DNA of 64,000 nt from an uncultured Candidatus Saccharibacteria bacterium (GTDB lineage: Bacteria; Patescibacteriota; WWE3; UBA101185; UBA10185). Location: the NCBI GenBank assembly GCA_964396025.1, contig CAYNBT010000002.1, positions 37,030 through 101,029 on the forward strand, given 5' to 3'. The translations under genes and the position numbers were made by a program. A model generated the notes under the pieces. The model saw only the letters and a list, made by a program, of their open reading frames with translations, had not been told where the DNA came from and ran no database searches. Shown here piece by piece: positions 1-42,374 of the stretch. The stretch's first letter is position 1. Every line of letters begins with the position of its first letter.

Positions 1-386
1 GAGGTAAGCTGGGGCTGGATTGGTTACAGAGCGTTCCAGAGAATCTTCATTTACCCATTGATTACGCTAGAGACAATCTGGACATTGGACCTCTAACCAC
101 TAATAAATACACAGAATTTGTTCAGCAGGCTCGCACTATTGTATGGGCTGGACCTCTAGGTAAGTTCGAAGATCCCGAATTCGCCGTTAGCACTGTTACT
201 GTAGCAAAAGCTGTTGTAGCAAGTAACGCTTACTGTGTTGCTGGCGGCGGTGATACAATATCTGCTCTTGAGCTTGCAGGAGTGCTAAGAGATTTTGACT
301 TTGTTTCCACAGGTGGTGGAGCCATGCTGGAATTTTTGGTTAAAGGAACCTTGCCCGGATTGGAAGCGCTTGAATATTATGGCTAA
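1..386 (+). CDS. pgk: Phosphoglycerate kinase, C-terminal fragment (the 5' part lies outside the window).
   Basis: The frame ending at TAA 384-386 translates to ...AGGGDTISALELAGVLRDFDFVSTGGGAMLEFLVKGTLPGLEAL, which is the conserved PGK C-terminal hinge and ATP-domain motif. It is followed by tpiA-type glycolytic context. Confidence 0.8.
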   Translation, partial: GKLGLDWLQSVPENLHLPIDYARDNLDIGPLTTNKYTEFVQQARTIVWAGPLGKFEDPEFAVSTVTVAKAVVASNAYCVAGGGDTISALELAGVLRDFDFVSTGGGAMLEFLVKGTLPGLEALEYYG

Positions 387-645
387 AATTTTAAAAATTT
401 CATTTCCAAATAAATGTAACGGGTGTGAACTGTGCGTGTTAGCTATTCAAAGACAATTTAATCGCACTGGGCTGGATGGTTCCTTGATAAGGATTTTTAG
501 AAAAAAAGAAGAAGACGGCATCACTTATGCCATTGAAATGGATCCTAGTATCAACAATTACGATGTAGCCAGCATAGTTAAGTCTTGCCCAACAGGCGTA
601 TTTGAAATTACAGAGGAATTAAATGAAGAACAACTTCTTAATTAA
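379..645 (+). CDS. Small single-cluster [4Fe-4S] ferredoxin-like protein, 88 aa.
   Basis: An internal ATG at 379 within the 295..645 ORF gives MAKILKIS.... The protein has a CNGCELC motif (CxxCxxC) plus a distal SCP cysteine, the classic four-Cys ferredoxin pattern. It overlaps the pgk stop by 8 nt. Confidence 0.5.
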   Translation: MAKILKISFPNKCNGCELCVLAIQRQFNRTGLDGSLIRIFRKKEEDGITYAIEMDPSINNYDVASIVKSCPTGVFEITEELNEEQLLN

Positions 646-1531
646 GCAGGTACTAATCATAGATCTAGCGAAAAAAGAGTACGCAGTTAAATCCTATGAT
701 GAATTGTACAAATACATTGGCGGAGTAGGTTTGGGTCTTAAACTGTTATCTCAGTACCAGACCGAGGACCCTATTATCTATTCGGTTGGGCCATTAAATG
801 GATTTTTTCCTTATGCTTCAAAAACGTCCGTAGTTCTTAGATCTGACGGTGTGATTGAGGATTTGTATTTGGGAGGGTCTTTATCTTTTAGGTTGAAGTT
901 TTCCGGTATAGATTCTGTTGTGATTAAGGGCGTCTCAAAAGAACCCGTTATTTTGGATATAAGAGGCGATACTGTAAATATCCTTCCTGCAGATGCGGAT
1001 TTGCAAAGTCTTGGTTTACCCGGAAAGCGTAGTGTTCTGGCGTTTGGGGCTTCCAACGATGATGCTAGCTTTAGTTTGGCCGGAAAACTTGTATCTTATG
1101 ACAAATCCAAGCTCTATTTAGATAGATACTTTACATCTCACGAAAAACTTTTGGAGCGAAAATTCCTAGAAAAGAATATCATGGGTATTGTATTTACAGG
1201 GAGCGTTACATTTCCCATAAAAGATACAGAAAAATATGCAGAGATTTTTAGCGCTCTATTGATGCGTTCAAAAGAAGTGTCTATTGCAAAATCTGATGCT
1301 CCGTCGTGTTCAGGCTGTCCTTTGGGTTGCGCTAAGTCTCGTGAAGGTGAGATTGGAGGCAATCTTTTGGCCCACTGCATGGTTTCGTGCTCTTTTGCTC
1401 AAGCAATTTATTCGGATGTAAATACAGTCTTTTCTTGTTTGAATGTTTTGGGGTACGATTACACTCATGAGGATATTGAAAACGCACCGTTGTATATTTC
1501 GCAAGTTCTAAAGGAGATTGATGGGAAATAG
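623..1531 (+). CDS. Aldehyde:ferredoxin oxidoreductase (AOR) family protein, truncated. It covers the N-terminal domain and the start of domain 2, including a CxxCxxxC motif.
   Basis: The sequence KYIGGVGLGLKLL...SVGPLNGFFPYASKTSVV...LKFSGIDSVVIKGVSKEPVILDI matches the AFOR_N domain pattern. CSGCPLGC lies at about residues 229-236. The ORF ends at 302 aa, whereas canonical AORs are about 600 aa. Confidence 0.55.
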   Translation: MKNNFLIKQVLIIDLAKKEYAVKSYDELYKYIGGVGLGLKLLSQYQTEDPIIYSVGPLNGFFPYASKTSVVLRSDGVIEDLYLGGSLSFRLKFSGIDSVVIKGVSKEPVILDIRGDTVNILPADADLQSLGLPGKRSVLAFGASNDDASFSLAGKLVSYDKSKLYLDRYFTSHEKLLERKFLEKNIMGIVFTGSVTFPIKDTEKYAEIFSALLMRSKEVSIAKSDAPSCSGCPLGCAKSREGEIGGNLLAHCMVSCSFAQAIYSDVNTVFSCLNVLGYDYTHEDIENAPLYISQVLKEIDGK

Positions 1532-2198
1532 ATACATTATTGCTAATTGGAAACAGAATCTTAACGCCGCTGAGATATGTGTGTGGTTTCAAAAGTTTGC
1601 TAAGTTACTTGATGGTCATAAAGTGCCGGCATACTTGAATATTTTGATTGCACCAACTTTTGTTCATCTCGCGCTAGTAAATGATTTAGCAAAAGATTTT
1701 GAAAATTTATTCTGCACAGCCCAAAACGTTTCCCTTTTTGATAATGGAGCGCATACAGGTCAAGTAGGTGCTCAGCAACTTACGGACTACTGTTCAAAAG
1801 GAATTGTTGGGCATAGTGAGACCGGAGATTCCGCAGAACAAAGTTTGCAAAAGATATCACTACTCTTGAATCATGGTATACAGCCCTTTCTATGCTTCAC
1901 TAGCTTTTCTTTTGTTGATAATCACAAAGATGTTACACAAATTCCTCTAATTTGGGAGGATCCTGCTAACATCTCGGTAAAAGGGGAATATCGTTCCAGA
2001 AGTTCGCAAGAAATAAAACAGCACTGTGTTGAATTTAAAGACCACCATCCAAAAGCAACCTTACTTTATGGTGGTTCTGTGAATAGACAAAACACTGGTG
2101 ATTTAGGTAATATTGCTGAGCTAGATGGTGTGATAGTTGGCAATGCTAGCCTTGATCCAGAGCACTTTTTTGAAATAGTTAAATCTTTTGAATTATGA
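1521..2198 (+). CDS. tpiA: Triosephosphate isomerase.
   Basis: The protein has the IANWKQN, GAQNVS and GAHTGQV...GHSE TIM signatures. The AAGGAG at 1511-1516 favours the ATG at 1521 over the TTG at 1518. Confidence 0.85.
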   Translation: MGNRYIIANWKQNLNAAEICVWFQKFAKLLDGHKVPAYLNILIAPTFVHLALVNDLAKDFENLFCTAQNVSLFDNGAHTGQVGAQQLTDYCSKGIVGHSETGDSAEQSLQKISLLLNHGIQPFLCFTSFSFVDNHKDVTQIPLIWEDPANISVKGEYRSRSSQEIKQHCVEFKDHHPKATLLYGGSVNRQNTGDLGNIAELDGVIVGNASLDPEHFFEIVKSFEL

Positions 2199-3274
2199 AA
2201 TATATCGATTTGAACAAATCTGTTGTGCAAAAGCAACAGGCCAAAGCCTCATTATCGCAGCAAGCTCAGTCTGGCCAAAACAAGAAACGTATGGTTATAT
2301 TTTTTGCTGTGATCATGATTCTGGTAGGTTTTTTCTTCTTTTCCGGCGGTAGTTTAGCTGCGTTGTTTGATCCAGTATCAATTGTGGGAAATGCAGCAAC
2401 TACCAAGCTTAAAGAGACTGATGGGCGAACAAACATTCTGATCTTGGGTTCGGATAAGAGATCTGTAGGATCCGTAACCTCTGTTCTAACCGACACCATA
2501 CTTGTTGCCTCCATAGGCCGTGTCGAAGGAAATGTTGTTTTGCTTTCGCTGCCACGAGATTTATGGGTAAAAACAGAAGATGGTTATCAGTCCAAAATAA
2601 ACGCAGTTTATGCAAATGGTGGAGGTGACAGTATAAGCAAGGTTGCAGAAGATGTACTAGGTGTGCCCATTCACTATTACGCTGTGGTAAACTTTGAGAT
2701 TTTTAAGAAGGTTATTGATATCCTGGGTGGGGTTGAGGTTACTGTTGACCACGCCTTTGTTGATTACAGTTATCCAGTGGAAGGTAAAGAAAATGCGCCG
2801 GAATCTGAACGTTATGAAATCGTAAAGTTTTCTCAAGGCAAGCAGCAGATGAACGGTGAAGTAGCATTAAAATTTGTGCGTTCCCGAAAAGGTGATAATG
2901 GTGAGGGTACTGATTTTGCACGTTCTCGCCGTCAGCAAAAAGTCATTATGGCGATTAAAGACAAGGCGTTGTCTCTAGAGACTCTAATCGACCCAACTAA
3001 GCTAAAAAACCTCTATGACACCTACTATAAAAATGTAGACACCAATCTGGACTTTTCCACGTTACAAGGATTTTACTTTTTATCCAAAAAGATAAATTTT
3101 GAGCAAGTTCGCTCAATAGTTTTAGATGATCGTAGCGCCTCTGTTGAAGGGGGTTTGCTATATGCACCTGAAGATAGAACCCTGTACGGTGGGGCGTATG
3201 TGTTAATTCCTAAATCAGGAAATTTTGCTCAGCTCCATGCTTATGTACAAAGATATATCTTTGGCGAATTATGA
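2195..3274 (+). CDS. LCP family (LytR-CpsA-Psr) cell-envelope phosphotransferase.
   Basis: An N-terminal TM segment is followed by TNILILGSDKR...TDTILVASI...LLSLPRDLWV...NAVYANGG, the LCP domain motifs. Its ATG overlaps the tpiA stop as ATGA. Confidence 0.8.
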   Translation: MKYIDLNKSVVQKQQAKASLSQQAQSGQNKKRMVIFFAVIMILVGFFFFSGGSLAALFDPVSIVGNAATTKLKETDGRTNILILGSDKRSVGSVTSVLTDTILVASIGRVEGNVVLLSLPRDLWVKTEDGYQSKINAVYANGGGDSISKVAEDVLGVPIHYYAVVNFEIFKKVIDILGGVEVTVDHAFVDYSYPVEGKENAPESERYEIVKFSQGKQQMNGEVALKFVRSRKGDNGEGTDFARSRRQQKVIMAIKDKALSLETLIDPTKLKNLYDTYYKNVDTNLDFSTLQGFYFLSKKINFEQVRSIVLDDRSASVEGGLLYAPEDRTLYGGAYVLIPKSGNFAQLHAYVQRYIFGEL

Positions 3275-3963
3275 TTTTTATTCTCCATGGTGATAATTCC
3301 GTCTTTTTAAGAGATTTAGTTTTTAAACTTCAAACCAAACTTTTTGCTGAATCACGTATCGAAAGAGACATTTCTGTAATTTCTCCTGCACAGCTGTCTG
3401 TTTTAGTCTCTTCTTTTGATATTTTTAGCGCGGCACCGTTTATAGTTTTAGATATCACTAAGGCTGGCTCCGGAGATAAAAGCGCATATGTCGATGCTGT
3501 TAGAGCTATGCCCGCAGAAACCAACCTGATTTTACTCAGTCATAAGCTATTACCTAAGAATAGCATTTGGTTTAAAAACTTTGAGAATGCCAAAATCTTT
3601 GAAAGTAACGTCGCCCCCGATTCTAGTGTATTTAAGTTTTTGGATCAGCTTTTCGTACAGAATAGATCAGTGTCTTACGAAGAGCTGCATAAGCTTTTGG
3701 TAGAAGGACAGGATCCATTCTATATTTTTTCTATGCTACTTTATTCCCTTAGAAACATTGCTGGGGTTAAGTTTGGAGCACCCACGTTTGCAAAACTGCA
3801 GCCGTTTATGCGTTCAAAATTTGAGCGACAGGCGAATAAATTCTCAGAAGAAACACTTAGGTCTTTTTACCTTTATTTTGCTGATCTAGACAGAAAGGTT
3901 AAGTTAGGTCAAATTAATTCAGATACTATGCTCACTCTAGCAGTGGAGAAAGTTTTGGCATAA
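3271..3963 (+). CDS. Putative DNA polymerase III delta subunit (HolA-like), short form.
   Basis: The N-terminus MIFILHGDNSVFL resembles the delta-subunit start (LYGEE..L). The size and helical C-terminal part are consistent. The match is weak. Its start overlaps the LCP stop as ATGA. Confidence 0.35.
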   Translation: MIFILHGDNSVFLRDLVFKLQTKLFAESRIERDISVISPAQLSVLVSSFDIFSAAPFIVLDITKAGSGDKSAYVDAVRAMPAETNLILLSHKLLPKNSIWFKNFENAKIFESNVAPDSSVFKFLDQLFVQNRSVSYEELHKLLVEGQDPFYIFSMLLYSLRNIAGVKFGAPTFAKLQPFMRSKFERQANKFSEETLRSFYLYFADLDRKVKLGQINSDTMLTLAVEKVLA

Positions 3964-3965
3964 CT

Positions 3966-4688
3966 ATGACTCAAAGAATTTACATCAAAGATGAATCATT
4001 TGACCCTATATTTAAGCAAAGAAACGCGTCTTTTTTGTTGAAATCCCGCATTCTACCTTTAAGTTCTATATTACTTGGTGTTGTTATTCTTATCACCCAA
4101 ATTATTGTGCCGCTTGTGTTCTTTGAAACCTCAGAAAACATTTCCAAGCCTGTGCGATCCACTATGCTTGGAATTGCTTCGGGGTTTGGCGATTTTTCGT
4201 TTAATGAGCTTGAAGATTCCTCTTCAACGTTGGAAGGTAATTCCAATGTTCCAGATAAATTCTATCTTTCTATACCAAAGTTAAAGATAGATAGGGCAGT
4301 CGTTGATACAAATTCCAAATCACTAAGCCCTGACGATGTTATTGGGCACTATATTGGTTCTGCATTGCCTGATGCTCCGGGAAACATGTTTTTGTATGGT
4401 CACTCTGTTTTACCCGTGTTTTACAATCCCAAGAATTACAAAACCATATTTTCTACACTAAATAAATTGCAGGATGGTGATGTTATCACTATTGAGTACA
4501 ATAACAAAAAATACACCTATAAAGTGGATTCTGTTGAAATTTTAAAAACCTCCGAAGTTAAACCTTTAGGTCAAGTAAGCCCAAGATATCTTAATGAATC
4601 TACAATAACTATTATGACTTGTTGGCCTCCGGGGACTAAGAGTAAAAGATTACAAGTTGTTGGTACTCAGATTAATCCAACTTTTTGA
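3966..4688 (+). CDS. Sortase (transpeptidase).
   Basis: An N-terminal TM anchor is followed by the catalytic motifs LYGHS (His), TIMTCWPPG (TLxTC Cys) and a downstream Arg (SKRLQV). Confidence 0.75.
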   Translation: MTQRIYIKDESFDPIFKQRNASFLLKSRILPLSSILLGVVILITQIIVPLVFFETSENISKPVRSTMLGIASGFGDFSFNELEDSSSTLEGNSNVPDKFYLSIPKLKIDRAVVDTNSKSLSPDDVIGHYIGSALPDAPGNMFLYGHSVLPVFYNPKNYKTIFSTLNKLQDGDVITIEYNNKKYTYKVDSVEILKTSEVKPLGQVSPRYLNESTITIMTCWPPGTKSKRLQVVGTQINPTF

Positions 4689-14925: not shown

Positions 14926-16176
14926 TTAACTAGCCGGTGTGTATATTGTTTGCAGTGCCTTGGCTGCTTTTCTGCGGATTTCTATTTCTTTTCTGTACTG
15001 TATGACTTCGTCACTTTTAATGTTTCCCTGAGAAATTTCATTTAGAGCTTCTTGAGTATATTCGTTAACGGTTAGTGGATTTCTCATTTGAAGCCCCTTG
15101 GGTGATGTTTCATAAACATTACCTCGGTCAAAATACAAGTCGTATGCGGCTTCCAACAGCAATCCTCTGTGGGCCTCCTGTCTTTGTGCCTCTATCTCAT
15201 CTTTGTTGGGCCAACGAAGTCTTTTGTCGTCTTTGGTTCTTATCATCAATGCTTCCGCTTCAGGACTATCTTCTTTAAAGAATTGAGGACCGTGCGATTC
15301 TAGCCTATCAAGTGCTGCAAGAACCTGTTCCTCTGTAGAGGGAATCATTCTCTTTGATCCTGCCACTTGTACCCATTCTTGTCGCGCTTCCCTATACTTC
15401 ATCATTGCTTCTTCTTGCTCTGGGCTTCTGGGCGCAGCCTTTTCCCCAGTAAGGTTCTGCATATGTAGTACTGCTCTTTCGTAAACATTGGGTAATTCTC
15501 GTTCCTTTTCTACTATTCTTGCTGCAAGTTTTCTTCCACGTTCCATGAGTTCGGGTAGTTCCGCCTTGCGTTCGTGCCATATTTGAAGTTGCTTTTCGTC
15601 TATTCCACGTTCCTGCAATCTTTTCAAGAGTGCAAGGTTCACAGCCGGTTGCAACTTTGCATGATGTTGCGTTGGGCCGCATAGCATTTCCCAGCCAGCG
15701 TCTAGATCCGCAAGTCTTAGTTCTCTTCCACTGAGGTCATCAACGAGCTCAGTGATATATCTGTTATCTCTCATACTGCGTAAATTATTTAGCTCAGGGC
15801 CAATTGTGAGTTCTTTTAGCGAATCTGTAGAAAGGGCAAAATACACATTGTCAGGCATATTTGCTCTTGTTTCTATTTGTGGTTGTCCTAGAAAAGCCCC
15901 GGCGTAAGCAATAATTTCTGGGGTGTTAGCAGGTACAAAAACGTTTTCGTGTGTAATTTCTTTCCAGTTTTTAACTACGTCCGCATATCCTTCTTTAAGG
16001 CTGTTTAACTCTTCTGCCTTTTCCTTATTATTCTTGGGCCTGTTTGTCTCGTTTGTCGATTCTTCGTAACTGTCCGTTTTCTTGCCTTCTGCCCACTCTT
16101 TGGCATTACTCACACTACCTATCTTATATCCTTCAGTATGAATATCTACATGCCCAGCTTCTGCAAATGGTGCCAT
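14926..16176 (-). CDS. Hypothetical soluble protein of 416 aa, rich in charged residues, with locally higher GC.
   Basis: It is a long ORF with no TM segment or signal peptide. A long alternate-frame ORF (15392..15682) signals higher GC here than in neighbouring genes. I do not recognise a family. Confidence 0.45.
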   Translation of the reverse strand: MAPFAEAGHVDIHTEGYKIGSVSNAKEWAEGKKTDSYEESTNETNRPKNNKEKAEELNSLKEGYADVVKNWKEITHENVFVPANTPEIIAYAGAFLGQPQIETRANMPDNVYFALSTDSLKELTIGPELNNLRSMRDNRYITELVDDLSGRELRLADLDAGWEMLCGPTQHHAKLQPAVNLALLKRLQERGIDEKQLQIWHERKAELPELMERGRKLAARIVEKERELPNVYERAVLHMQNLTGEKAAPRSPEQEEAMMKYREARQEWVQVAGSKRMIPSTEEQVLAALDRLESHGPQFFKEDSPEAEALMIRTKDDKRLRWPNKDEIEAQRQEAHRGLLLEAAYDLYFDRGNVYETSPKGLQMRNPLTVNEYTQEALNEISQGNIKSDEVIQYRKEIEIRRKAAKALQTIYTPAS

Positions 16177-22429: not shown

Positions 22430-23422
22430 ATGCTCAAACGTACTTGCCCAAACTGTCTTGAAACATTGACCGATTTTGATAACTTCTTTTGTACCTATTG
22501 TGGTAAAAAGATTTCACCAGATCTGGTTTTGTCTCCGCCTGCTCTCAAGGTCAAAACTTACAAACTAAGTTATGTGACTTTGGGAAGTAGGATAAGGAAT
22601 ATGTTTCGTGCAAGGCGTAGTTCACGTGGTGCTGAGTCGAATTCACCCGCTTTCAAAGTTTTACCAAAAGACCAATTCGTTCACACTCGCATGACTTATG
22701 TTCTGTTCTATATTCTACTAGCGTTTGTGGTTGGTTTTGTCGGCATCTATGTCAAAACCAATTTCCTAGATTCATACAAAGAGAAAAAGACCCAAGAATC
22801 TCAGAAAGTTTTTGCTAACACTGTAGACTTGGGGCTTGATTTTGAATCTAATGTTTTTGGCTCCGACTTTATTACAGACTATATTCCTCAGCAAGCAATC
22901 TTTTATATGGAATCTCACGATTCACATGCCTTTGTTAGAGATTTGGTGGATGTGACCAACTTTAATCCAATCTTACTCAAAGGGACTTCAGAACTAGTTC
23001 ACAAACATTTTGTTGTCTTTGCCTATGAACTTAATAATCAAACCGAGTGGGGCTTTGTGTTTATACCAAAGGACGTAGAGGTCGTGAAGGCCCTTACAAA
23101 GGAATATAATTTACCAAAATGGCATTTCGCTGTGATCGAAGATAATCTCGTCGTTGCATCCTCTCCCGAGATTTTTGATATTATAAAGAACGCCAAGGCG
23201 AACTCTATTCCCAACGTTTCGCTAAATGCAAATTATTCCAAGAGTATAGGCAATGTGCAGCGAAGCGGCCAGATTTTGGTAATATTGCTTTCGAGGGAAA
23301 AAGCGCTAGAGGTCTTAAAGCGACTAGGTAGTGTAAACTTGCATCCATTTATGCAAAAGCAGGTTCAATACATTATTGACGCAGGTTTTAGCGAGTTTGT
23401 GGTAGATAACTTGAAAAGATAA
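22430..23422 (+). CDS. Hypothetical membrane protein with an N-terminal zinc-ribbon (CPNC...CTYC).
   Basis: It has a CxxC-X14-CxxC motif, one TM segment (YVLFYILLAFVVGFVGIYV) and a C-terminal domain of about 220 aa that I do not recognise. Confidence 0.4.
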   Translation: MLKRTCPNCLETLTDFDNFFCTYCGKKISPDLVLSPPALKVKTYKLSYVTLGSRIRNMFRARRSSRGAESNSPAFKVLPKDQFVHTRMTYVLFYILLAFVVGFVGIYVKTNFLDSYKEKKTQESQKVFANTVDLGLDFESNVFGSDFITDYIPQQAIFYMESHDSHAFVRDLVDVTNFNPILLKGTSELVHKHFVVFAYELNNQTEWGFVFIPKDVEVVKALTKEYNLPKWHFAVIEDNLVVASSPEIFDIIKNAKANSIPNVSLNANYSKSIGNVQRSGQILVILLSREKALEVLKRLGSVNLHPFMQKQVQYIIDAGFSEFVVDNLKR

Positions 23423-31181: not shown

Positions 31182-31646
31182 ATGGATACAAATGCACAAA
31201 ATACATCTGATCCTAATATTCAGCCTAATTCGCCTGATTTAAGTTTTCAACCAAGCGCTTCGGTATCCGGCGAAAGTGGGGTTCATGTTGAGATCCCTGT
31301 TGTTGCACCTATCTCAGTTGAGCATACTCCCGAGCCTGTTGTAGAGCAGCCTGTAGAACAGACTGTAGAACAACCTGTAGAGTTGGCGCCAGAAGTTTAT
31401 AAAACTCCTGAAACTGTTGAAACTATATCACCCGCCCCAACGGTTGTTTTGAGTGAAGACCCTCTTGCCGAAAACGTTGTACCGCTGCCAAAAGCTATGC
31501 CTGTTGTTGAATCAATTGTAGACAAGAGAACTAATCATGAATCACTTGCAAAGGTAAAACCCAATGCCGACCCTGTAACTCTTGATGCAGATAAGAACGA
31601 AGAAGAGTTTATTGCTGGAGTGGAAATTGCCCATGAACATAAATAG
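31182..31646 (+). CDS. Acidic Pro/Val/Glu-rich repeat protein (VEQP/VEQT repeats), predicted to be disordered.
   Basis: Tandem repeats of about 12 nt, (c/a)ctgtagaaca(g/a), at about 31334-31383 encode PVVEQPVEQTVEQPVE. No TM segment is present. The 3' end overlaps the start of the downstream ATPase. Confidence 0.5.
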   Translation: MDTNAQNTSDPNIQPNSPDLSFQPSASVSGESGVHVEIPVVAPISVEHTPEPVVEQPVEQTVEQPVELAPEVYKTPETVETISPAPTVVLSEDPLAENVVPLPKAMPVVESIVDKRTNHESLAKVKPNADPVTLDADKNEEEFIAGVEIAHEHK

Positions 31647-34065
31647 CTCGATCAACACTATTATGTGGCTTTGGATAGCAGGTTTGGTTGCGCTGATGAT
31701 TGGGACTATTGTTTTCAAATATTACATTGGTAAAAAAAGAAGAGAGTATGAAGCTTCAAACCAATTTAAGCTCACATTCTTACAAATAAAACTTCCTCCT
31801 CAAAACGAGATCGAGATAAAAGCCGCCGAGCATATGTTTTCCAGTTTTATGGGGTTTAAGAAATCATTTTGGGATACACTCAAGACTGGGCAACATAGGA
31901 TTTCATTTGAAATTGTTTCAAAAGTCGAAGGTATTGCTTTCTATGTTGTGGTCCCCGATGATATTGCACTACATGTTGAAAAGCAGATAAACGCAGCTTA
32001 TCCAACTGCCGAAATTGATATTATCGATCCAGAAGAAATCTGGGATCGTGGTGCACATACAGCAATCATGGAGCTTGGACTTTCGGGTCCGGATTATTAT
32101 CCGATCAAGAACCATGAGGACATTGGTGGTGACGCACTTAGTGCTATCACCAGTTCCATGAGCAAGCTGGGTCCAGATGATGTGCTTACGGTGCAATTTC
32201 TTGTAAAGCCAGCTTCAGAGAATTGGCGTAAATCTGGTAAGAGCTATATTGGTAAAATCAAAAACCGTGCAAACGATCCGAACAAACAGGTCAATATTGA
32301 TACAGCTCATTTGGAGGGTGTAGAAAAGAAAATTTCAAAACCCGGTTTTGATACTGTGATAAGGGTAGTTTCAATCTCTAGTGATAAGTTTACCTCTGAT
32401 GCCCATCTCAGAGCCCTAGAGACAGCATTTGAACAGTTCACTGATGTAAATTACAACAGGTTTGTGGCCAAGCGTCTCAAATCATCAAAAAAATTTATTG
32501 ATGACTTTATTCACAGAAGAATGCGCGCTGTTGAATGGTTTATCCCGCTGTTTGATATCTCCTTGAAAAAGAATACTTCTGTCTTGAATATCTCTGAAAT
32601 GGCCACTGTGTTTCATTTTCCAAACAAAAACATCCAAACCCCAAATATTATCTGGCTTGGTGCTAGAAAGGCACCTGCACCTGCGAATGTACCAAAAGAG
32701 GGGATATTGCTTGGGCAGAATCAATACCGTGGTACTGTCACACCGGTACACATGAAAGACGGGGATCGCCGTAGGCACATGTATATTATAGGGCAAACCG
32801 GTACAGGAAAATCAGAATTTTTGAAAGCTCTGGTCCTTCAGGACATCAAAGCGGGTAAAGGTGTAGCGCTTATTGACCCTCACGGTAGTGATATAGATGA
32901 TATTTTGCAAAGAATTCCTGAGGAACGTAAAGACGATGTGATCTTGTTTGATGTTTCCGATACACAGCGGCCGTTAGGTCTAAACATACTTGAATGGCAA
33001 ACTGAGGAACAAAAGAATATGTTGATCAACGCTTTTATTGGTTTGTTGTACAAGCTATATGACCCAAATCGCCAAGGAATTATTGGACCAAAGCTTGAAC
33101 GTGCTGTTAGAAACATTATGCTTACAGCGATGGTAGATAGAGAGGCTACATTGGTTGATGTATTACGTTTATTGATTGATAACGAGTATTCCAAAAAATT
33201 CTTGCCTTTGGTAAAAGATCCTTTGGTAAAACGTTATTGGACTGATGAGGTTGCCAAAACCAGCGACTTCCACAAGAGCGAAACCATGGGCTACTTTGTT
33301 TCAAAGTTTGATAGGTTTATCACCGAAAGCACCATGCGCAATATTCTGGGTCAGCCAAAATCGGCATTGGACTTCTCCAAAATTATGGCAGAGAAAAAGA
33401 TCTTCCTTGCCGATTTATCCAAAGGGAAAATTGGTGAAGAAAATGCCACGTTCTTGGGTTTGATCATTGTTCCAAGGATTTTGATGGCTGCTCTGCAGCG
33501 TGCTACGTTACTAGGTCAGGGAATTCAATTCCCTGATTTTTACCTGTATGTAGATGAGTTCCAAAACTTTGCTACGCCCGATTTTGCCACAATCTTATCT
33601 GAAGCTAGAAAATATAAACTTAACTTGATAGTAGCCAACCAGTTTATTGCGCAACTTTCTGATGAGATCAAAACAGCAATTTTTGGTAACGTGGGAACTA
33701 TGGCTTCGTTCCGAATTGGTATAGATGATTCAGAATATTTGGCCACGCAGTTTTCGCCGATTTTTGAGGCCAATGACTTGATCAACAATCCTATGGGAAG
33801 TGCTTGTGTAAGATTGTTGATAGATGGGCACCCATCAATTCCATTTTCAATGCAAGTGCCTTGGGATAAAGAGCGTAATGACCTTTCTCTTATATACGGT
33901 GAGTTTTCAAAAAATCAAAACATTGGACAAGAAATACGTCAGCGTTCTAGAATGACTTATGGTCGCCCAGTTGCCGAAGTGGAAGAGTTTATAAACAAGC
34001 GTGCCGGTTTTGACGAGCCGCCCATACAAGCTCCTCCTCAACTGAAAAGGGAGATCAGGTTTTAA
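31633..34065 (+). CDS. Membrane-anchored FtsK/HerA-superfamily ATPase resembling a type IV coupling protein (VirD4/TraG/TcpA-like). A VirB4-like ATPase is the alternative.
   Basis: An N-terminal TM segment (IMWLWIAGLVALMIGTIVF) is followed by a domain of about 330 aa and then Walker A HMYIIGQTGTGKS...ALIDPHG. The Walker B and C-terminal motif FYLYVDEFQNFATPDF...ARKYKLNLIVANQFIAQL...FGNVGTMASFRIGIDDSEYLA is typical of T4CP and VirB4 proteins. The ATG at 31633 lies inside the tail of the upstream ORF. Confidence 0.55.
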   Translation: MNINSSINTIMWLWIAGLVALMIGTIVFKYYIGKKRREYEASNQFKLTFLQIKLPPQNEIEIKAAEHMFSSFMGFKKSFWDTLKTGQHRISFEIVSKVEGIAFYVVVPDDIALHVEKQINAAYPTAEIDIIDPEEIWDRGAHTAIMELGLSGPDYYPIKNHEDIGGDALSAITSSMSKLGPDDVLTVQFLVKPASENWRKSGKSYIGKIKNRANDPNKQVNIDTAHLEGVEKKISKPGFDTVIRVVSISSDKFTSDAHLRALETAFEQFTDVNYNRFVAKRLKSSKKFIDDFIHRRMRAVEWFIPLFDISLKKNTSVLNISEMATVFHFPNKNIQTPNIIWLGARKAPAPANVPKEGILLGQNQYRGTVTPVHMKDGDRRRHMYIIGQTGTGKSEFLKALVLQDIKAGKGVALIDPHGSDIDDILQRIPEERKDDVILFDVSDTQRPLGLNILEWQTEEQKNMLINAFIGLLYKLYDPNRQGIIGPKLERAVRNIMLTAMVDREATLVDVLRLLIDNEYSKKFLPLVKDPLVKRYWTDEVAKTSDFHKSETMGYFVSKFDRFITESTMRNILGQPKSALDFSKIMAEKKIFLADLSKGKIGEENATFLGLIIVPRILMAALQRATLLGQGIQFPDFYLYVDEFQNFATPDFATILSEARKYKLNLIVANQFIAQLSDEIKTAIFGNVGTMASFRIGIDDSEYLATQFSPIFEANDLINNPMGSACVRLLIDGHPSIPFSMQVPWDKERNDLSLIYGEFSKNQNIGQEIRQRSRMTYGRPVAEVEEFINKRAGFDEPPIQAPPQLKREIRF

Positions 34066-34088
34066 TATGAAAGTTTTTAACTAATACT

Positions 34089-37000
34089 ATGACTGCCCAA
34101 AATCGCCGAGATACACAACCTGATGAGCTAGCCACCCTGCGCGATGTACTTGAGACTACTGGCTCAGCCGAAACTAAGGCACGTGAAGCTGAAATTCTTA
34201 AAAAAAGCAATCCGGAAGACTTAGATATCACGGATTTGGTAAAGCGCACAGATGTAAGGCTCAAGACAGCTGCAGAAGAACTTAAGAAACTCGAAGGGGT
34301 CAATGCAGCAGAGTTTATTGCGGCATGCACAGATTTTAGCGATCACATTAAAAGTTTTAGACCACAAGAAAATGATGCAAACGACGTGGTATTGCTGGCA
34401 TTAGAAAATGCGGGTAGAGCTGAGGTAGTGTTTGACGAGGCATACAAAGGCACCATAAGAGAGATAGTTATGTTCGTCAACGAGTATGCTCCTCATGTTA
34501 GTGAACAAAATCCAAAGATAGGCTTTGCTTTACAAATGTATATGGAGGCAATGTCTGCCAATAATTCTTTTGCTGATTTAAACAACGAGCAGGAATTTAC
34601 GAATCAGTATGTAAGGCCGGCTTCAGAAAATAATCTCAGACTAAGTAAAGAAGAAGCGTCAAAACTTTTTCATGCTTTACACGATATTTCTCAAGTAAAT
34701 CCGATGCCTTTTAAAGATTTTGCCAATGAGAACAATTATGCACCGGGCAATACAGTAGAGCAGGATAAAGAAATTGCTGCAACAAAAGAGCACGAACGCT
34801 ATCAAAAATGGCTAAACTTGGTTGAGACCTTTGATTCATTTTTGCCTCAAGATCCCCTGCAAAACAAATGGGAAAAATACAATGAAATCCCCGGACCCGT
34901 GGAAAACCCATGGCTAAATTGGCAAGAAAAACATGCTGCCGATGGTGGTTTGATTGTGGACGTGAGCAAAGGTGCAGGGCCACTTGTAGAGGTTGAAAAG
35001 AGAAGCGGCTTTTTTGGAACTAAAAAAGGCTATGAAGCTGCAAAACCTGTTCAAAACGAAATCTTCCTCATGGAAAAACAGATAGCTGTGGTTGGGCAAG
35101 ACGGCAGAACTTACTTAAGAAAAGTTCAGTGCTCAAACGAAGTTTATTACAAAGTAGATTTAAAATACGACAAAGTCGGTGGCGTTGAGGCAGCCTACTA
35201 CAAACAAACGGGATTCTGCCATACAGGAATAAAGTCAGAAATAATTGGAGAATATGAACGAATGCAACAGTTACGTGCAGCTGTAGCGGTCGAGGGAGGT
35301 AATAAATACCAAGTTCCTCAACTGATTCAAGAAGAAGGGGATCCAGCGCCCAAAATGCAGGTAATCCTCATGGACAAGGAAACCTATCTAAAAGCGTTGA
35401 GTAATGTCACACTTGCCGTGAAATCATACGAGGGCCCTCCACCTCCAGAAGGTAACAATCCAAAAGCCATAGTTGATGCTTACTACGAGAAAAAGGCCCA
35501 GGCGGGCAGGAAGAAGTTCAGAGAGCAATTTGTAAACGAAATCGCTGGTGACGATTTGATGCCAGAGCGTGCCCATGTACAAGTCCGATCTGCTGTGGAG
35601 GCATACTTGGCCAGGTTAGAAACCGCAGAACCAAAAAATGAGACATTGATAAACTCAATAAAGGAATCCCAAGAGAATGTAAATGCCCATTACGAAGATA
35701 TTGGAAGAAACTACGGCAAACTAAACAGATACAACGATAAAGCCACACAGCGTGTCTTGGAGCGACGTGCTTTGGGACTTTCTACACTTACCGATCAGGA
35801 CGTTTATGATCACAGCCCTGCTTATATGGCCGAACTAAATGCTGCAAAGCAGGAAATTGCCAGCGAGTATTTTTACAAAAAGATAGTTTTGAATGATGTG
35901 GCTATGGAAGTGAAAAGGCTTGAAACTGTAGAACAGAGCAATCCGGAAGTACTCAATGATTATTTGGCTAATCTGGATCATAGAATTCAGTTGCGTGTTG
36001 AGGAAATGAAGCAAAATGCAGAGATCGATAAAACTGCTTCTTCTGCTGAGGCAGCGAGCAAATACATCACTGCAGATATGGATGCCATGTATGAGGCGAT
36101 TGCACGCCCTACGCATGATTTATCCGTAGAATTAAAAAGAGGCGAGAAGTTAGTAGCTAGAGCAAAGGACAAACATAAGATGGCTGTGGGAGATATGTAT
36201 GCCTATGCCACAATGTCTGGACTCTTGCCTCAGGATGTTTGGAATGCCGTGGAGTTAAATACTGCTCTTACTATTATAAGCGATCAGACAAATTGGGAAG
36301 TTGCATATCTTCCGGAACTAGTACTGCCTCCAACATCGCCTGATAGCTTGGATCCTGTATTTTTGACAAAGTTTGTGAATATTTACAATAGGAAACCTAC
36401 GCAGCAAGAGATGAATGCGTTTGCATACAATACAAACGTTAACGCTATTGACTCAAAAATTGCTAGAGCAAACGCAAGAGTTATGGAGGTTGAGCGTGTC
36501 CTAGATTATTTTGGTTCTTTGGAAAATGCCTCAGATGATATGTCCCAACAAGATGTTTATAACGCGATGGTCTCAGGTGCTACTCTTGATTTTGAGACCC
36601 GTTCTGTGGTTAAAGAAGCTGTTAAATTAAGATATGCAGACGACGAAGTACGTCAGAGTATTGCGGAGTCCTATCTATCGGCTGCCAAAATTGTTGAGGC
36701 TACGTCAGTACTCGTGGCTGCTAGAAACAAACGTGCTGTTGAAGGTAATTTCATACCTTCCGACTATATGGATGTTAATGGAAGTATTACTTCGGAAGGA
36801 GCTAGGATTTTTGCGGAAATGGAAGCTCTAAAAAAAGAACTATCCCCTGAGAGCGCTGCAAAGGTGATTGCTAATCTTGATAGCAACCGTAGGAAGAATG
36901 AACAAGGTCTTGAAGCTGTTGCGGTCGAAATTACCCCAGCTAGACTAGACACCTTACAAACCAGCTTAGAAGGAAACTTGGAGGCTGCACGAGCTCTAGC

Positions 37001-37454
37001 TGCTGAAAGTAAGTACGGTGCTCAGGTGCCTGAGGATGCATTTGACGCCCAAGCTCAATTTATAAAAGAGACCATTGATAATTTGCGCAATCAGCCTGCT
37101 TCTTCCGCACAGTCGGCGCAAGCTATTGTTGCATATAGAGCATTACACCGCATTAGTGGTGCACAGCAGGCCTTTCTAGATAGTTATGCCGATGCCACTG
37201 TAAATAAAGACGTTATGCGTGAGACAGCTTTGGCTGTGAATTATGTTACATCCGCTGCAGAAACCGCAGCAACATTCAATGCTGCGGTTCGCTTACCAGA
37301 CGACCTTATTCAGCTGGGACAGGAGCGGGGCATAGATGCTTCGTTTATTCTCCTCGCGAATGACACCTTTAGCTTGTCAACAGAAGTTCCGTACAATAGT
37401 GATGTAGTTATGGCTTATGCTGAGCAATTGCAGAATAATGCAGCCGCAGTATAG
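34089..37454 (+). CDS. Large hydrophilic hypothetical protein of 1121 aa, Ala/Glu-rich, with no TM segment or signal peptide.
   Basis: It is a long ORF with higher GC than its surroundings, shown by several long alternate-frame ORFs on the opposite strand. No motifs I recognise are present. It starts 23 nt after the ATPase gene. Confidence 0.6.
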   Translation: MTAQNRRDTQPDELATLRDVLETTGSAETKAREAEILKKSNPEDLDITDLVKRTDVRLKTAAEELKKLEGVNAAEFIAACTDFSDHIKSFRPQENDANDVVLLALENAGRAEVVFDEAYKGTIREIVMFVNEYAPHVSEQNPKIGFALQMYMEAMSANNSFADLNNEQEFTNQYVRPASENNLRLSKEEASKLFHALHDISQVNPMPFKDFANENNYAPGNTVEQDKEIAATKEHERYQKWLNLVETFDSFLPQDPLQNKWEKYNEIPGPVENPWLNWQEKHAADGGLIVDVSKGAGPLVEVEKRSGFFGTKKGYEAAKPVQNEIFLMEKQIAVVGQDGRTYLRKVQCSNEVYYKVDLKYDKVGGVEAAYYKQTGFCHTGIKSEIIGEYERMQQLRAAVAVEGGNKYQVPQLIQEEGDPAPKMQVILMDKETYLKALSNVTLAVKSYEGPPPPEGNNPKAIVDAYYEKKAQAGRKKFREQFVNEIAGDDLMPERAHVQVRSAVEAYLARLETAEPKNETLINSIKESQENVNAHYEDIGRNYGKLNRYNDKATQRVLERRALGLSTLTDQDVYDHSPAYMAELNAAKQEIASEYFYKKIVLNDVAMEVKRLETVEQSNPEVLNDYLANLDHRIQLRVEEMKQNAEIDKTASSAEAASKYITADMDAMYEAIARPTHDLSVELKRGEKLVARAKDKHKMAVGDMYAYATMSGLLPQDVWNAVELNTALTIISDQTNWEVAYLPELVLPPTSPDSLDPVFLTKFVNIYNRKPTQQEMNAFAYNTNVNAIDSKIARANARVMEVERVLDYFGSLENASDDMSQQDVYNAMVSGATLDFETRSVVKEAVKLRYADDEVRQSIAESYLSAAKIVEATSVLVAARNKRAVEGNFIPSDYMDVNGSITSEGARIFAEMEALKKELSPESAAKVIANLDSNRRKNEQGLEAVAVEITPARLDTLQTSLEGNLEAARALAAESKYGAQVPEDAFDAQAQFIKETIDNLRNQPASSAQSAQAIVAYRALHRISGAQQAFLDSYADATVNKDVMRETALAVNYVTSAAETAATFNAAVRLPDDLIQLGQERGIDASFILLANDTFSLSTEVPYNSDVVMAYAEQLQNNAAAV

Positions 37455-40829: not shown

Positions 40830-42374
40830 ATGAAAAAACTTATCTTAGAAATTCATGATGATATTTTAAAAATTCTTGAGAAATTGGAAAATTCTCAAGA
40901 TACGGTTGTGGAGCTGGAAATACCCGAAGGCTCTGTTTTGTTTGATAACATCGTGAATCTAAAGGTTTTGCAAAAGGAGGCAGATAATTTGGGTAAATCG
41001 CTAAATTTCAAAACTTTAGATGAAAACGGCGCCGCGTTGATTGAAAGTATTTTATCTGGTACTCGCCCGCAAGACGAATTCGTATCTAGAGAGTTTACGC
41101 CTTCGCGCCATAGTATCACTCCCAAAGAGAGTGTTATCTCCAGACTAATTGGATCTCTCCCCAGCTTGCCTAAATTTAGCATGTTTTCTGGTGGTGGAAA
41201 TTTTAGTAAAGTGCTGCTAATTTTTGTAGTTTTGAGTTTGCTAGGTGGAATGGGTTATTTGCTGGTAACGCAGGTCCCGCAAGCATTTGTAAAGATCTCT
41301 GTTGATTCGCAGCCCTTGATTAAAAGTATTTCTATAAAAGTAGTTTTGGACAAGGCTACTTCTGCTAAAGAAAGAATATTGAATGGGAGGAAGGTAGAAG
41401 CTGTAGTGGCAGACACTGCGTCCATGGAGCCAACAGGAATCAAAATTGTGGGAGAAACTGCGTCAGGCAAGATCAAAATTTACAATTATACTGATCAAGA
41501 GAAAGAGTTTGGTAAAGGTACCGAAGTTTATTTTAATGAAGACGATTACGATTTAACGTATAAAACCAAAAGTTCTGTGGTTGTTCCTGCTGAAACCTTG
41601 AAAGAACCCGGTGTACCAGGCAGTCCCACAGTGCCCGGTGAGGCAACAGTGGATGTAGAAGCCACAGAGATTGGTGAAGATTCTAACATAGATAAGGGTA
41701 GTACGCTGACCTTTGACGATTACAAAAAATCTGAGGTAGTTGCGGCGGCAGACGCCGATTTTTCCGGCGGAGAAAGCTCTGAAGTAAAAGTAGTTGCAGA
41801 GGCAGACTTACTGAAACTTGAGGAAGAACTTCAAAAGAAACTTACTGAAAACAGCGAAAGCATCCTAAAAGCTAAGCAAGGCGTAAAGTACAAACTAATT
41901 GATGGATCAACCGCCACCTCCATTGTTTCCAAAAAGTTTTCGGCAGAACTCGACGACGAAACCGATACGTTAAATCTGGATATGGAAGTTAAAGCTTTTG
42001 GTTTGGCCTATTCTACAGATGAGTTGAATAAACTGCTAGACACTTTGGTTGATAGTTTCATTCCAGACGGATTTAAACTTTCTGCCAAAAACAAATCAAT
42101 CAGCGTTGAGATTTTAGGTAATTCAGATGATACTGTTCTATCTTCTTCTGAGGCTGATCTACAGGTAACTCTTAAGGCATATGTAGTGCCAGGTATAAAT
42201 GAACAAGAATTAAAAACTAAACTTAGAGGAAAAAAGTTGAATGATGCAAGAGATTTATTAAACAACATACAGAACATAAACAATTTTGAATTAAGTATTT
42301 CCCCAAATATCCCATTCTTTGGCAGAATGCCCGTATCCGAGGAGAATATAAGCCTTGAGATCAGCTTAAATTAA
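40830..42374 (+). CDS. Hypothetical bitopic membrane protein (cytoplasmic N-terminal domain of about 125 aa, one TM segment, extracytoplasmic domain of about 370 aa).
   Basis: The central TM segment is VLLIFVVLSLLGGMGYLLV. It is translationally adjacent to the FtsA/PilM-like gene, with a 1-nt gap. Confidence 0.4.
   Translation: MKKLILEIHDDILKILEKLENSQDTVVELEIPEGSVLFDNIVNLKVLQKEADNLGKSLNFKTLDENGAALIESILSGTRPQDEFVSREFTPSRHSITPKESVISRLIGSLPSLPKFSMFSGGGNFSKVLLIFVVLSLLGGMGYLLVTQVPQAFVKISVDSQPLIKSISIKVVLDKATSAKERILNGRKVEAVVADTASMEPTGIKIVGETASGKIKIYNYTDQEKEFGKGTEVYFNEDDYDLTYKTKSSVVVPAETLKEPGVPGSPTVPGEATVDVEATEIGEDSNIDKGSTLTFDDYKKSEVVAAADADFSGGESSEVKVVAEADLLKLEEELQKKLTENSESILKAKQGVKYKLIDGSTATSIVSKKFSAELDDETDTLNLDMEVKAFGLAYSTDELNKLLDTLVDSFIPDGFKLSAKNKSISVEILGNSDDTVLSSSEADLQVTLKAYVVPGINEQELKTKLRGKKLNDARDLLNNIQNINNFELSISPNIPFFGRMPVSEENISLEISLN

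What the first reader, a model, noticed from the sequence alone, without database searches (positions are those of the whole stretch)
379..1531. Ferredoxin and a truncated AOR-family protein wedged between pgk and tpiA
The pgk stop, a four-Cys [4Fe-4S] ferredoxin, an AOR-family ORF and tpiA overlap by 8, 23 and about 11 nt, so they are co-transcribed inside the glycolytic operon. The AOR-like ORF keeps the AFOR N-terminal domain plus the CxxCxxxC cluster motif (CSGCPLGC) and stops at 302 aa, whereas tungsto/molybdopterin AORs are about 600 aa. The AOR family includes GAPOR (glyceraldehyde-3-phosphate:ferredoxin oxidoreductase), which bypasses GAPDH and PGK in some archaea. An AOR remnant with its ferredoxin exactly at the pgk/tpi junction suggests either a decayed GAPOR-like bypass or a new minimal redox protein.
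Basis: partly seen in the sequence, partly recalled or inferred. Interest (0 to 1): 0.6.

Follow-up and report, generated by a model that had tools for sequence, protein, structure and literature searches.

The report
Pterin-less mini-AOR with partner ferredoxin
Between two glycolysis genes of a WWE3 (candidate phyla radiation) bacterium sits a conserved pair of small iron-sulfur proteins: a one-cluster ferredoxin and a half-size relative of tungsten aldehyde oxidoreductases that lost its metal-cofactor domains by an internal deletion but kept its iron-sulfur site. It is a working gene of unknown role, not a dead one.

Summary

"Truncated" is the wrong word. Compared with 538-604-aa relatives, the protein has an internal deletion of about 168 residues (most of the pterin-binding domains 2 and 3) and lacks the last 55 or so residues. 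It keeps domain 1, the CxxCxxxC motif and the distal fourth cluster cysteine.

It is not a pseudogene. Intact 276-302-aa orthologs occur in 77 of 79 species-level WWE3/Patescibacteria genomes found. dN/dS is about 0.02-0.04. An upstream CxxCxxC ORF is always present (CP motif detected in 87/89 partners), and tpiA follows wherever the contig allows.

GAPDH and PGK are present, and GAPOR and AOR family models are missed by wide margins, so a GAPOR bypass is not supported.

Other WWE3 lineages carry 538-554-aa forms (with or without cluster cysteines) or 198-217-aa forms at the same locus, which looks like a stepwise reduction series.

The best reading is a pterin-free [4Fe-4S] protein working with its ferredoxin. 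The physiological role is unknown. This is a new variant of a known kind, of moderate interest.

The parts
3..386 (+). 3' end of pgk (phosphoglycerate kinase); the window starts inside the gene
   Evidence: Pfam PGK 1.3e-28. Stop TAA at 384-386.
379..645 (+). 88-aa single-cluster ferredoxin-like protein (C13, C16, C19 ... C70-P71)
   Evidence: CxxCxxC...CP is invariant in 41 homologs. An upstream CxxCxxC ORF is present in 89/89 related loci. Fer4 hits are sub-threshold. The AF2 model has low confidence (pLDDT 52.6).
623..1531 (+). 302-aa 'mini-AOR': an AOR-family protein lacking most of domains 2 and 3
   Evidence: AFOR_N 3.9e-22. 414 homologs; the top 120 listed are all 276-308 aa. AF2 pLDDT 87.7; Foldseek best hit 1aor_A, E 8.5e-15.
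647..1330 (+). Region collinear with residues 7-276 of the 538-aa WWE3 long form P0206 (AOR domain 1 through the CxxCxxxC loop). The Pfam AFOR_N match covers nt 647-997.
   Evidence: tblastn, hmmsearch, PDB profile alignment to 1AOR residues 10-226.
1043..1108 (+). Lineage-variable insertion (residues ~141-162), absent from most orthologs
   Evidence: Alignment A1. pLDDT is below 50 at residues 147-156.
1307..1330 (+). CSGCPLGC: three [4Fe-4S] ligands (C229, C232, C236)
   Evidence: 100% conserved in 86 short and micro forms. Aligns to the CxxCxxxC of 1AOR residues 288-295.
1331..1366 (+). Deletion junction: 12 codons here stand where P0206 has 168 residues (277-444)
   Evidence: tblastn P0206 against the window. 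Profile alignment.
1367..1483 (+). Module derived from AOR domain 3. It contains the fourth cluster Cys (C256, nt 1388-1390) and the family signature YTHEDIE (nt 1460-1480).
   Evidence: Profile positions 227-270 align to P0206 443-485 (E 1e-9) and to 604-aa P0213 487-528. C256 and H282 are 100% conserved.
1521..2198 (+). tpiA (triosephosphate isomerase), always the next gene after short forms
   Evidence: Pfam TIM 2.5e-33. Synteny holds in all loci that extend far enough. The ortholog in RAAC2_WWE3_1 is PDB 7R7M.
2195..4688 (+). lytR-cpsA-psr (2195-3274), holA-like (3271-3963) and sortase (3966-4688). These continue the same tightly packed gene string and are context only.

Best explanation
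The two ORFs encode a conserved two-protein iron-sulfur module specific to WWE3 (Katanobacteria)-type Patescibacteria.

The 302-aa protein descends from a ferredoxin-linked AOR-family enzyme of about 540-550 aa that sat at this locus. An internal deletion removed the core of the tungsto/molybdopterin-binding domains 2 and 3. What remains is domain 1, the CxxCxxxC loop and the domain-3 helix that supplies the fourth cysteine, which together make a complete [4Fe-4S] site.

The protein therefore cannot oxidise aldehydes at a W/Mo centre. It most likely still binds one [4Fe-4S] cluster and exchanges electrons with the co-translated single-cluster ferredoxin, as AORs do with their ferredoxin or Fe-S subunits. 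The former pterin-facing surface, with invariant K67, E79/D80/Y82, GKRS 134-137, E243 and H282/E283, has probably been re-used for a new partner or ligand.

Shown: homology, the deletion architecture, retention of all four Cys, purifying selection, obligatory pairing with the ferredoxin, and the position upstream of tpiA.

Inferred: cluster binding, electron transfer between the two proteins, and any link to lower glycolysis or to re-oxidation of PFOR-reduced ferredoxin.
For: - Homology: Pfam AFOR_N 3.9e-22. The profile matches FOR, AOR, WOR5 and BamB in the PDB at 1e-11 to 1e-9. The AF2 model (pLDDT 87.7) has 1AOR as best hit.
- Internal deletion: profile positions 7-199 align to AOR domain 1 and 204-217 to CxxCxxxC. 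Positions 227-270 align to residues 443-496 of 540-554-aa forms and to 487-528 of a 604-aa form, with C256 on the distal cluster Cys. At the DNA level, P0206 residues 7-276 map to nt 647-1330 and residues 445-483 to nt 1367-1483, in one frame.
- Conservation: 79 species-level loci were found, with intact 276-302-aa ORFs. 81/81 short forms have CxxCxxxC plus the distal Cys. The four Cys are 100% conserved in 86 short and micro forms. dN/dS is 0.016-0.035 in the closest pairs, and median identity is 48.9%, compared with 50% for PGK and 38.6% for TIM.
- Partner: 89/89 loci have an upstream CxxCxxC ORF, and 74/89 show stop/start overlap.
- Loss of pterin chemistry: Pfam finds no AFOR_C. The Arg aligned with PfAOR Arg182 (a pterin-phosphate ligand, recalled from Chan et al. 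1995) is Phe in short forms and in WWE3 long forms.
- Origin: in an NJ tree the short and micro forms make a clade in 100% of bootstraps. They nest beside cluster-bearing WWE3 long forms found at the same locus.
- Ferredoxin-linked metabolism: WWE3 genomes encode PFOR (PMC3812714).
Against: - No experiment or model coordinates were available, so the Cys geometry around the cluster is unverified.
- Some same-locus relatives lack the cluster cysteines (long forms P0209, P0212 and P0314; micro form P0280) while the ferredoxin keeps its own. The AOR-side cluster is therefore not universally required, and the ferredoxin may have other partners.
- The ferredoxin assignment rests on the motif and on sub-threshold Fer4 hits. 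Its AF2 model is poor.
- Synteny is conserved for the whole neighbourhood within one phylum, and the gene string continues into lytR, holA and sortase. Gene position is therefore weak evidence for a glycolytic role.
- The many invariant polar residues hint at more than simple electron transfer.
Confidence: 0.55

Rival explanations
1. It is a non-redox pseudo-enzyme. The AOR remnant would serve as a structural, scaffolding or regulatory partner, for example of TIM, PGK or the ferredoxin. Its cluster would be purely structural or act as an O2/redox sensor.
For: - Cluster-less long forms and one cluster-less micro form persist at the same locus.
- What all forms share is the N-terminal part of domain 1 (~95 residues in the micro forms).
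- It is always translationally coupled to neighbouring genes.
Against: - All four cluster Cys are 100% conserved in the 86 short and micro forms analysed.
- The dedicated ferredoxin partner is always present with its cluster motif.
- There is no evidence of contact with TIM or PGK. In long-form lineages tpiA is not adjacent.
Confidence: 0.25
2. It is a new pterin-free Fe-S enzyme acting on a triose-phosphate-related substrate together with the ferredoxin, possibly also with the adjacent TIM. This would functionally replace or supplement a GAPOR-like step.
For: - The location next to gap, pgk and tpiA is invariant.
- Many residues are invariant and of catalytic type: K67, E79, D80, Y82, K135, E243, H282, E283.
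- Domain-1 loops that contact pterin phosphates in AORs are retained.
Against: - All four Fe ligands are Cys, so there is no open iron site for substrate.
- No precedent exists for aldehyde oxidation by a bare [4Fe-4S] cluster.
- GAPDH and PGK are present.
- The ortholog of the adjacent TIM in RAAC2_WWE3_1 has a solved structure deposited as triosephosphate isomerase (PDB 7R7M).
Confidence: 0.1
3. It is a functional GAPOR/AOR whose missing pterin domains are supplied in trans, or a minimal W/Mo enzyme.
For: AOR-family ancestry and a ferredoxin partner.
Against: - The deletion is internal. No AFOR_C remnant exists in the window.
- NCBIfam AOR scores 55.5 bits against 868, and GAPOR 12.1 against 1300.
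- The residue equivalent to pterin-phosphate ligand Arg182 is Phe.
- CPR bacteria are generally held to lack pterin cofactor biosynthesis (recalled background, not tested here).
Confidence: 0.04
4. It is a decaying pseudogene: a frameshifted or truncated AOR on its way out.
For: It is half the usual length, and the host is a reduced CPR genome.
Against: The ORF is intact in 77/79 species-level genomes, with dN/dS of about 0.02-0.04 and invariant motifs. It is as conserved as PGK and more conserved than TIM.
Confidence: 0.01

Closest known systems
Tungsten/molybdenum aldehyde:ferredoxin oxidoreductase family (P. furiosus AOR 1AOR, FOR 1B25, WOR5 6X6U, BamB 4Z3W, AorB 8C0Z)
   Same: Homologous domain 1 (AFOR_N). 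The same CxxCxxxC plus distal Cys [4Fe-4S] site. A ferredoxin-type partner is encoded next door. These are the best fold and sequence matches.
   Different: About 168 residues of domains 2 and 3 are deleted internally and the C-terminal ~55 residues are missing. There is no AFOR_C match. The Arg182-equivalent pterin-phosphate ligand is replaced by Phe. Length is 302 aa against about 600 aa. It scores far below NCBIfam equivalog cut-offs.
WWE3 long AOR-like proteins at the same locus (P0206, P0210, P0328, P0352; 538-554 aa)
   Same: Same locus (pgk - ferredoxin - AOR-like - lytR), same partner ferredoxin, same cluster cysteines and the H282-type motif. They are sister to the short clade in the NJ tree.
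   Different: They keep AFOR_C, and no tpiA follows them. Even so, they already differ from the nearest ~580-aa bacterial AORs at many otherwise conserved Arg/His positions.
GAPOR (glyceraldehyde-3-phosphate:ferredoxin oxidoreductase, archaeal)
   Same: Same superfamily. A ferredoxin-linked enzyme of lower glycolysis.
   Different: The NCBIfam GAPOR_Arch model is not matched (12.1 bits against 1300). There are no pterin domains. GAPDH and PGK, which GAPOR would bypass, are present.
Fe-S (polyferredoxin) subunits of AOR complexes (WOR5 small subunit 6X6U_B, AorA, BamC) and monocluster ferredoxins
   Same: The small ORF has the CxxCxxC...CP pattern and sits directly upstream of the AOR-family gene. 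Its best PDB sequence match, which is not significant, is the WOR5 Fe-S subunit (E 0.16).
   Different: Only one cluster motif in 88 aa, against 3-4 clusters. Below Pfam Fer4 thresholds. The fold is not confirmed.

Membership tests
AOR family (W/Mo-bis-pyranopterin aldehyde:ferredoxin oxidoreductases) | N-terminal AFOR_N domain (domain 1) | tested here: met
   Pfam PF02730, 79.4 bits against a cut-off of 29.8. The profile aligns to 1AOR residues 10-226.
AOR family (W/Mo-bis-pyranopterin aldehyde:ferredoxin oxidoreductases) | Domains 2 and 3 (AFOR_C), which hold the two pterins and the substrate channel | tested here: not met
   No PF01314 hit. 168 residues of the long form are replaced by 12 codons.
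AOR family (W/Mo-bis-pyranopterin aldehyde:ferredoxin oxidoreductases) | [4Fe-4S] ligands: CxxCxxxC plus a distal Cys (Cys288/291/295/494 in PfAOR, numbering recalled) | tested here: met
   C229, C232, C236 and C256 are 100% conserved and align to the cluster Cys of long forms. Actual cluster binding was not tested.
AOR family (W/Mo-bis-pyranopterin aldehyde:ferredoxin oxidoreductases) | Pterin-phosphate ligands and active-site residues (e.g. Arg182, Asp338 motif, His448/Lys450; recalled from Chan et al. 1995) | tested here: not met
   The Arg182 equivalent is Phe170. The regions holding the Asp338 motif and His448 lie inside the deletion. The Arg76 equivalent is kept as K67.
AOR family (W/Mo-bis-pyranopterin aldehyde:ferredoxin oxidoreductases) | Curated equivalog score (NCBIfam NF007354) | tested here: not met
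   55.5 bits against a cut-off of 868.
AOR family (W/Mo-bis-pyranopterin aldehyde:ferredoxin oxidoreductases) | Bound W or Mo cofactor | not testable with these tools
   Needs metal analysis of purified protein.
GAPOR | Match to the GAPOR_Arch model (NF040818) | tested here: not met
   12.1 bits against 1300 for the window protein. WWE3 long forms score 17.9-29.5 bits.
GAPOR | Replaces GAPDH and PGK in the pathway | tested here: not met
   pgk is in the window. GAPDH lies upstream of pgk in relatives.
Monocluster [4Fe-4S] ferredoxin (small ORF 379-645) | CxxCxxC ... CP ligand pattern | tested here: met
   C13, C16, C19 and C70-P71 are invariant in 41 homologs. The pattern is present in 87/89 loci.
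Monocluster [4Fe-4S] ferredoxin (small ORF 379-645) | Pfam Fer4-type domain above the gathering score, and a ferredoxin fold | tested here: inconclusive
   Fer4 scores 19.1 bits against 21.1. The AF2 model has pLDDT 52.6, with a beta-alpha-beta-beta-alpha-alpha-beta element order.

The most novel reading that the evidence does not exclude
The ferredoxin and mini-AOR pair is a new pterin-free redox device tied to triose-phosphate metabolism. It could be an Fe-S-only enzyme, or a ferredoxin-dependent redox switch acting on or with the glycolytic enzymes it is co-translated with. It would have evolved from a tungsto-enzyme by deletion of the cofactor domains. The 550, 280 and 215-aa series in WWE3 would then record how a complex metalloenzyme is re-purposed during genome reduction.
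Probability: 0.12. Interest if true: 0.8.

Novelty: new variant of a known kind. Interest (0 to 1): 0.45.

Why it matters
AOR-family proteins are defined by their tungsto- or molybdopterin centre. Here a whole bacterial phylum keeps, under strong purifying selection, a version that has discarded that centre and retains only domain 1, the [4Fe-4S] site and a dedicated ferredoxin.

It is one of the few Fe-S or ferredoxin components encoded in these roughly 0.9-Mb genomes, and it sits in the core carbon-metabolism gene cluster. It is therefore likely to matter for how WWE3 bacteria handle reducing equivalents, for example from PFOR.

It also offers a natural deletion series (long with cluster, long without cluster, short, micro). 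This could be used to study how cofactor-dependent enzymes are minimised or re-purposed in reduced genomes.

Databases label these proteins only as 'AFOR N-terminal domain-containing' or hypothetical. I found no paper that analyses them.

Tried and rejected
- Hidden frameshifted pterin domains downstream: rejected. tblastn of the 538-aa long form against all 64 kb finds only the two in-frame segments inside 623-1531, and tpiA follows immediately.
- Pseudogene: rejected.
- GAPOR identity: rejected.
- A ferredoxin:thioredoxin-reductase-like role, suggested by trx upstream of gap and a fifth conserved Cys (C272): not supported. C272 is absent from the divergent short clade (L080), the micro forms and the long forms.
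- The unannotated 213-267-aa ORFs upstream of pgk in long-form loci as a relocated tpiA: rejected, no TIM match.
- The atypical loop 6 of the adjacent TIM as a sign of a non-TIM function: not pursued. The structure of the RAAC2_WWE3_1 ortholog is deposited in the PDB as triosephosphate isomerase (7R7M).
- AF2 of the ferredoxin: too low in confidence for fold search.
- Nine literature searches found no study of this family. Kantor et al. 2013 only list 'a ferredoxin oxidoreductase-like protein' among WWE3 electron carriers.
- The promoter/terminator scan gave nothing above background for promoter-like sites and no intergenic space.
Full report
**1. What is in the sequence**

The window opens inside pgk (Pfam PGK 1.3e-28). 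Its stop codon is TAA at 384-386. An ATG at 379 opens an 88-aa ORF (379-645) with exactly four cysteines, in the pattern C13-x2-C16-x2-C19 ... C70-P71.

An ATG at 623 opens a 302-aa ORF (623-1531). Its residues 9-125 match Pfam AFOR_N at 3.9e-22, and the rest has no Pfam match. CSGCPLGC lies at residues 229-236. tpiA starts at ATG 1521 (Pfam TIM 2.5e-33).

The same overlapping gene string continues with lytR (2195-3274), a holA-like gene (3271-3963) and a sortase (3966-4688). The rest of the window holds housekeeping genes typical of a small CPR genome.

**2. It is a conserved gene, not a remnant**

A search of 5.8 billion proteins gave 414 homologs. The 120 best are all 276-308 aa, 48-60% identical and cover 97% of the query. 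The named ones come from candidate division WWE3 or Patescibacteria.

A scan of one genome per species found 79 loci, all WWE3/Patescibacteria, including the complete RAAC2_WWE3_1 chromosome. In 77 of them the ORF is intact (one is cut by a contig end and one is partial). All 81 short forms carry CxxCxxxC plus a downstream Cys.

In the closest pairs dN/dS is 0.016-0.035. The protein is as conserved as PGK and more conserved than TIM or HolA. Median identity to the window proteins is 48.9%, 50%, 38.6% and 35.9% respectively.

**3. The partner and the neighbourhood**

Every one of 89 loci with an AOR-like ORF has a small ORF with CxxCxxC directly upstream. In 87 of these the distal CP motif is also detected, and in 74 the stop and start overlap. 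The four Cys are invariant in 41 homologs.

The order fdx - AOR-like - tpiA - lytR holds in every short-form locus that extends far enough. The most common full pattern is trx - gap - pgk - fdx - AOR-like - tpiA - lytR (38 loci). About eleven loci have gap followed directly by fdx, with no pgk between them (gene calls).

GAPDH is therefore present, just upstream of the window's start. None is found inside the window.

**4. Architecture: an internal deletion, not a truncation**

A profile of 33 family members was aligned to long AORs, with these results:
- Positions 7-199 align to AOR domain 1.
- Positions 204-217 align to the CxxCxxxC loop.
- Positions 227-270 align to residues 443-496 of 538-554-aa relatives (E 1e-9 for P0206) and to 487-528 of a 604-aa AOR. 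This places C256 on the distal cluster cysteine.

At the DNA level, P0206 residues 7-276 map to nt 647-1330 and residues 445-483 to nt 1367-1483 in the same frame. Twelve codons therefore stand where the long form has 168 residues. The last 55 or so residues of the long form are also absent. Nothing else in the 64 kb resembles an AOR.

The AF2 model is confident (pLDDT 87.7, pTM 0.89). Its only significant PDB matches are AOR-family structures, with 1AOR best at E 8.5e-15.

The protein thus keeps all four ligands of the AOR [4Fe-4S] cluster but lacks the domain cores that hold the two pterins. In addition, the arginine aligned with PfAOR Arg182 is Phe in short forms and in WWE3 long forms. Arg182 is a pterin-phosphate ligand, as I recall from Chan et al. 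1995. The Arg76 equivalent is kept as K67.

**5. A reduction series at one locus**

Other WWE3 lineages carry different forms in the same position, each preceded by the same ferredoxin:
- Forms of 538-554 aa with AFOR_N plus AFOR_C and the cluster cysteines (P0206, P0210, P0328, P0352). The context is pgk - fdx - long - lytR, with no tpiA.
- Forms of 549-551 aa that have lost all four cluster cysteines (P0209, P0212, P0314). Here pgk and tpiA are both absent from the locus.
- Micro forms of 198-217 aa that lack half of domain 1 but keep the cluster module and the DYTHEE motif (P0232, P0235). One member has no Cys motif (P0280).

The ferredoxin keeps its four Cys in all of these.

An NJ tree was built on 279 shared columns with 100 bootstraps:
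- The WWE3 forms are monophyletic in 82% of replicates.
- Short plus micro forms make a clade in 100%.
- The cluster-bearing long forms are their sister group.
- The cluster-less long forms branch below that.

This is a distance tree, not a maximum-likelihood analysis.

Compared with the nearest ~580-aa bacterial AORs, even the WWE3 long forms have replaced many otherwise conserved Arg and His positions while keeping the cluster Cys at 98%. This suggests that canonical catalysis was lost before the deletion occurred.

**6. What it most likely does**

The shown facts point to a pterin-free Fe-S protein that works with a dedicated single-cluster ferredoxin. I take the most likely mechanism to be electron exchange between the ferredoxin cluster and the retained AOR-type cluster, as in AORs and their Fe-S partners. 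The exposed former pterin-facing surface has many invariant polar residues (K67, E79, D80, Y82, G134-K-R-S137, E243, H282, E283). It probably serves a new partner or ligand.

WWE3 genomes encode PFOR and little other recognised ferredoxin machinery (Kantor et al. 2013, PMC3812714). The small protein may therefore be the PFOR acceptor, with the mini-AOR as its downstream partner. This is inference only.

Several observations argue against a simple reading:
- The cluster-less relatives.
- The weak Pfam support for the ferredoxin, and its poor AF2 model.
- Synteny within a single phylum is not independent evidence of functional coupling.

Rival explanations, with rough weights:
- Non-redox pseudo-enzyme or sensor: 0.25.
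- New Fe-S enzyme on a triose-phosphate-related substrate: 0.1.
- Cofactor-bearing GAPOR/AOR: 0.04.
- Pseudogene: 0.01.

**7. Comparison with known families**

It belongs to the AOR superfamily by descent. It fails the defining features of an AOR enzyme: no AFOR_C, missing pterin ligands, and 55.5 bits against the NCBIfam cut-off of 868. It also fails GAPOR (12.1 bits against 1300).

The small ORF has a monocluster ferredoxin motif. Its best PDB sequence match is the WOR5 Fe-S subunit, but this is not significant (E 0.16).

**8. Novelty and score**

Databases call these proteins hypothetical or 'AFOR N-terminal domain-containing'. Nine full-text searches found no analysis of them.

I rate it a new variant of a known kind, with interest 0.45. 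It is a clear and phylum-wide case of a tungsto-enzyme scaffold stripped to its Fe-S module and kept under selection. Its function is unknown and no long-standing question hinges on it.

Noticed in passing
window 1521-2198 (loop at about nt 1962-2000): The TIM encoded after the mini-AOR has 'WEDPANISVKGEY' where canonical TIMs have the loop-6 lid 'EPxWAIGTG'. 76 of 78 WWE3 loci share 'WEDPxNISxxGxY'. PDB 7R7M chain A (216 aa, deposited as triosephosphate isomerase) is 100% identical to the ortholog in RAAC2_WWE3_1, whose gene starts at the stop codon of the mini-AOR. This TIM type is therefore already structurally characterised.
   Followed up: partly
L083-L087 (P0314, P0212, P0209); L088, L092, L093 (P0206, P0328, P0352): Other WWE3 lineages carry 538-554-aa AOR-like proteins at the same locus. 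Some have all four cluster Cys and some have none. None is followed by tpiA. The cluster-less ones sit in loci that also lack pgk.
   Followed up: partly
L089, L090, L091 (P0235, P0232); P0280: 'Micro' forms of 198-217 aa keep about 95 residues of domain 1 plus the cluster module and the DYTHEE motif. They sit in the same pgk - fdx - X (- tpiA) context. P0280 lacks the Cys motif.
   Followed up: partly
L001:4784-5752, L003:4787-5755, L090:4584-5618: PGK in WWE3 relatives is only 319-344 aa. The Pfam PGK model has 379 positions and matches in three stretches. This is noticeably shorter than typical bacterial PGK.
   Followed up: no
L022, L023, L039, L041, L042, L066, L068, L078, L080-L082: In about eleven species gap is followed directly by fdx - mini-AOR - tpiA, with no pgk in between. 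Whether pgk lies elsewhere in these genomes is unknown.
   Followed up: no
relatives, e.g. L003:3414-3677, L001:2469-2732: A thioredoxin gene sits immediately upstream of gap in most WWE3 loci. No link to the mini-AOR could be supported.
   Followed up: partly
window 31582-37454: There are two large adjacent ORFs: 827 aa with a weak HerA/DUF87 ATPase match, and 1121 aa with no Pfam match. Further ORFs without Pfam hits lie at 14926-16176 (-), 22430-23422 and 40830-42374.
   Followed up: no
window 1043-1108: The window's mini-AOR has a roughly 22-residue insertion (FGASNDDASFSLAGKLVSYDKS). Only a few relatives share it, and the AF2 model predicts it as disordered.
   Followed up: no
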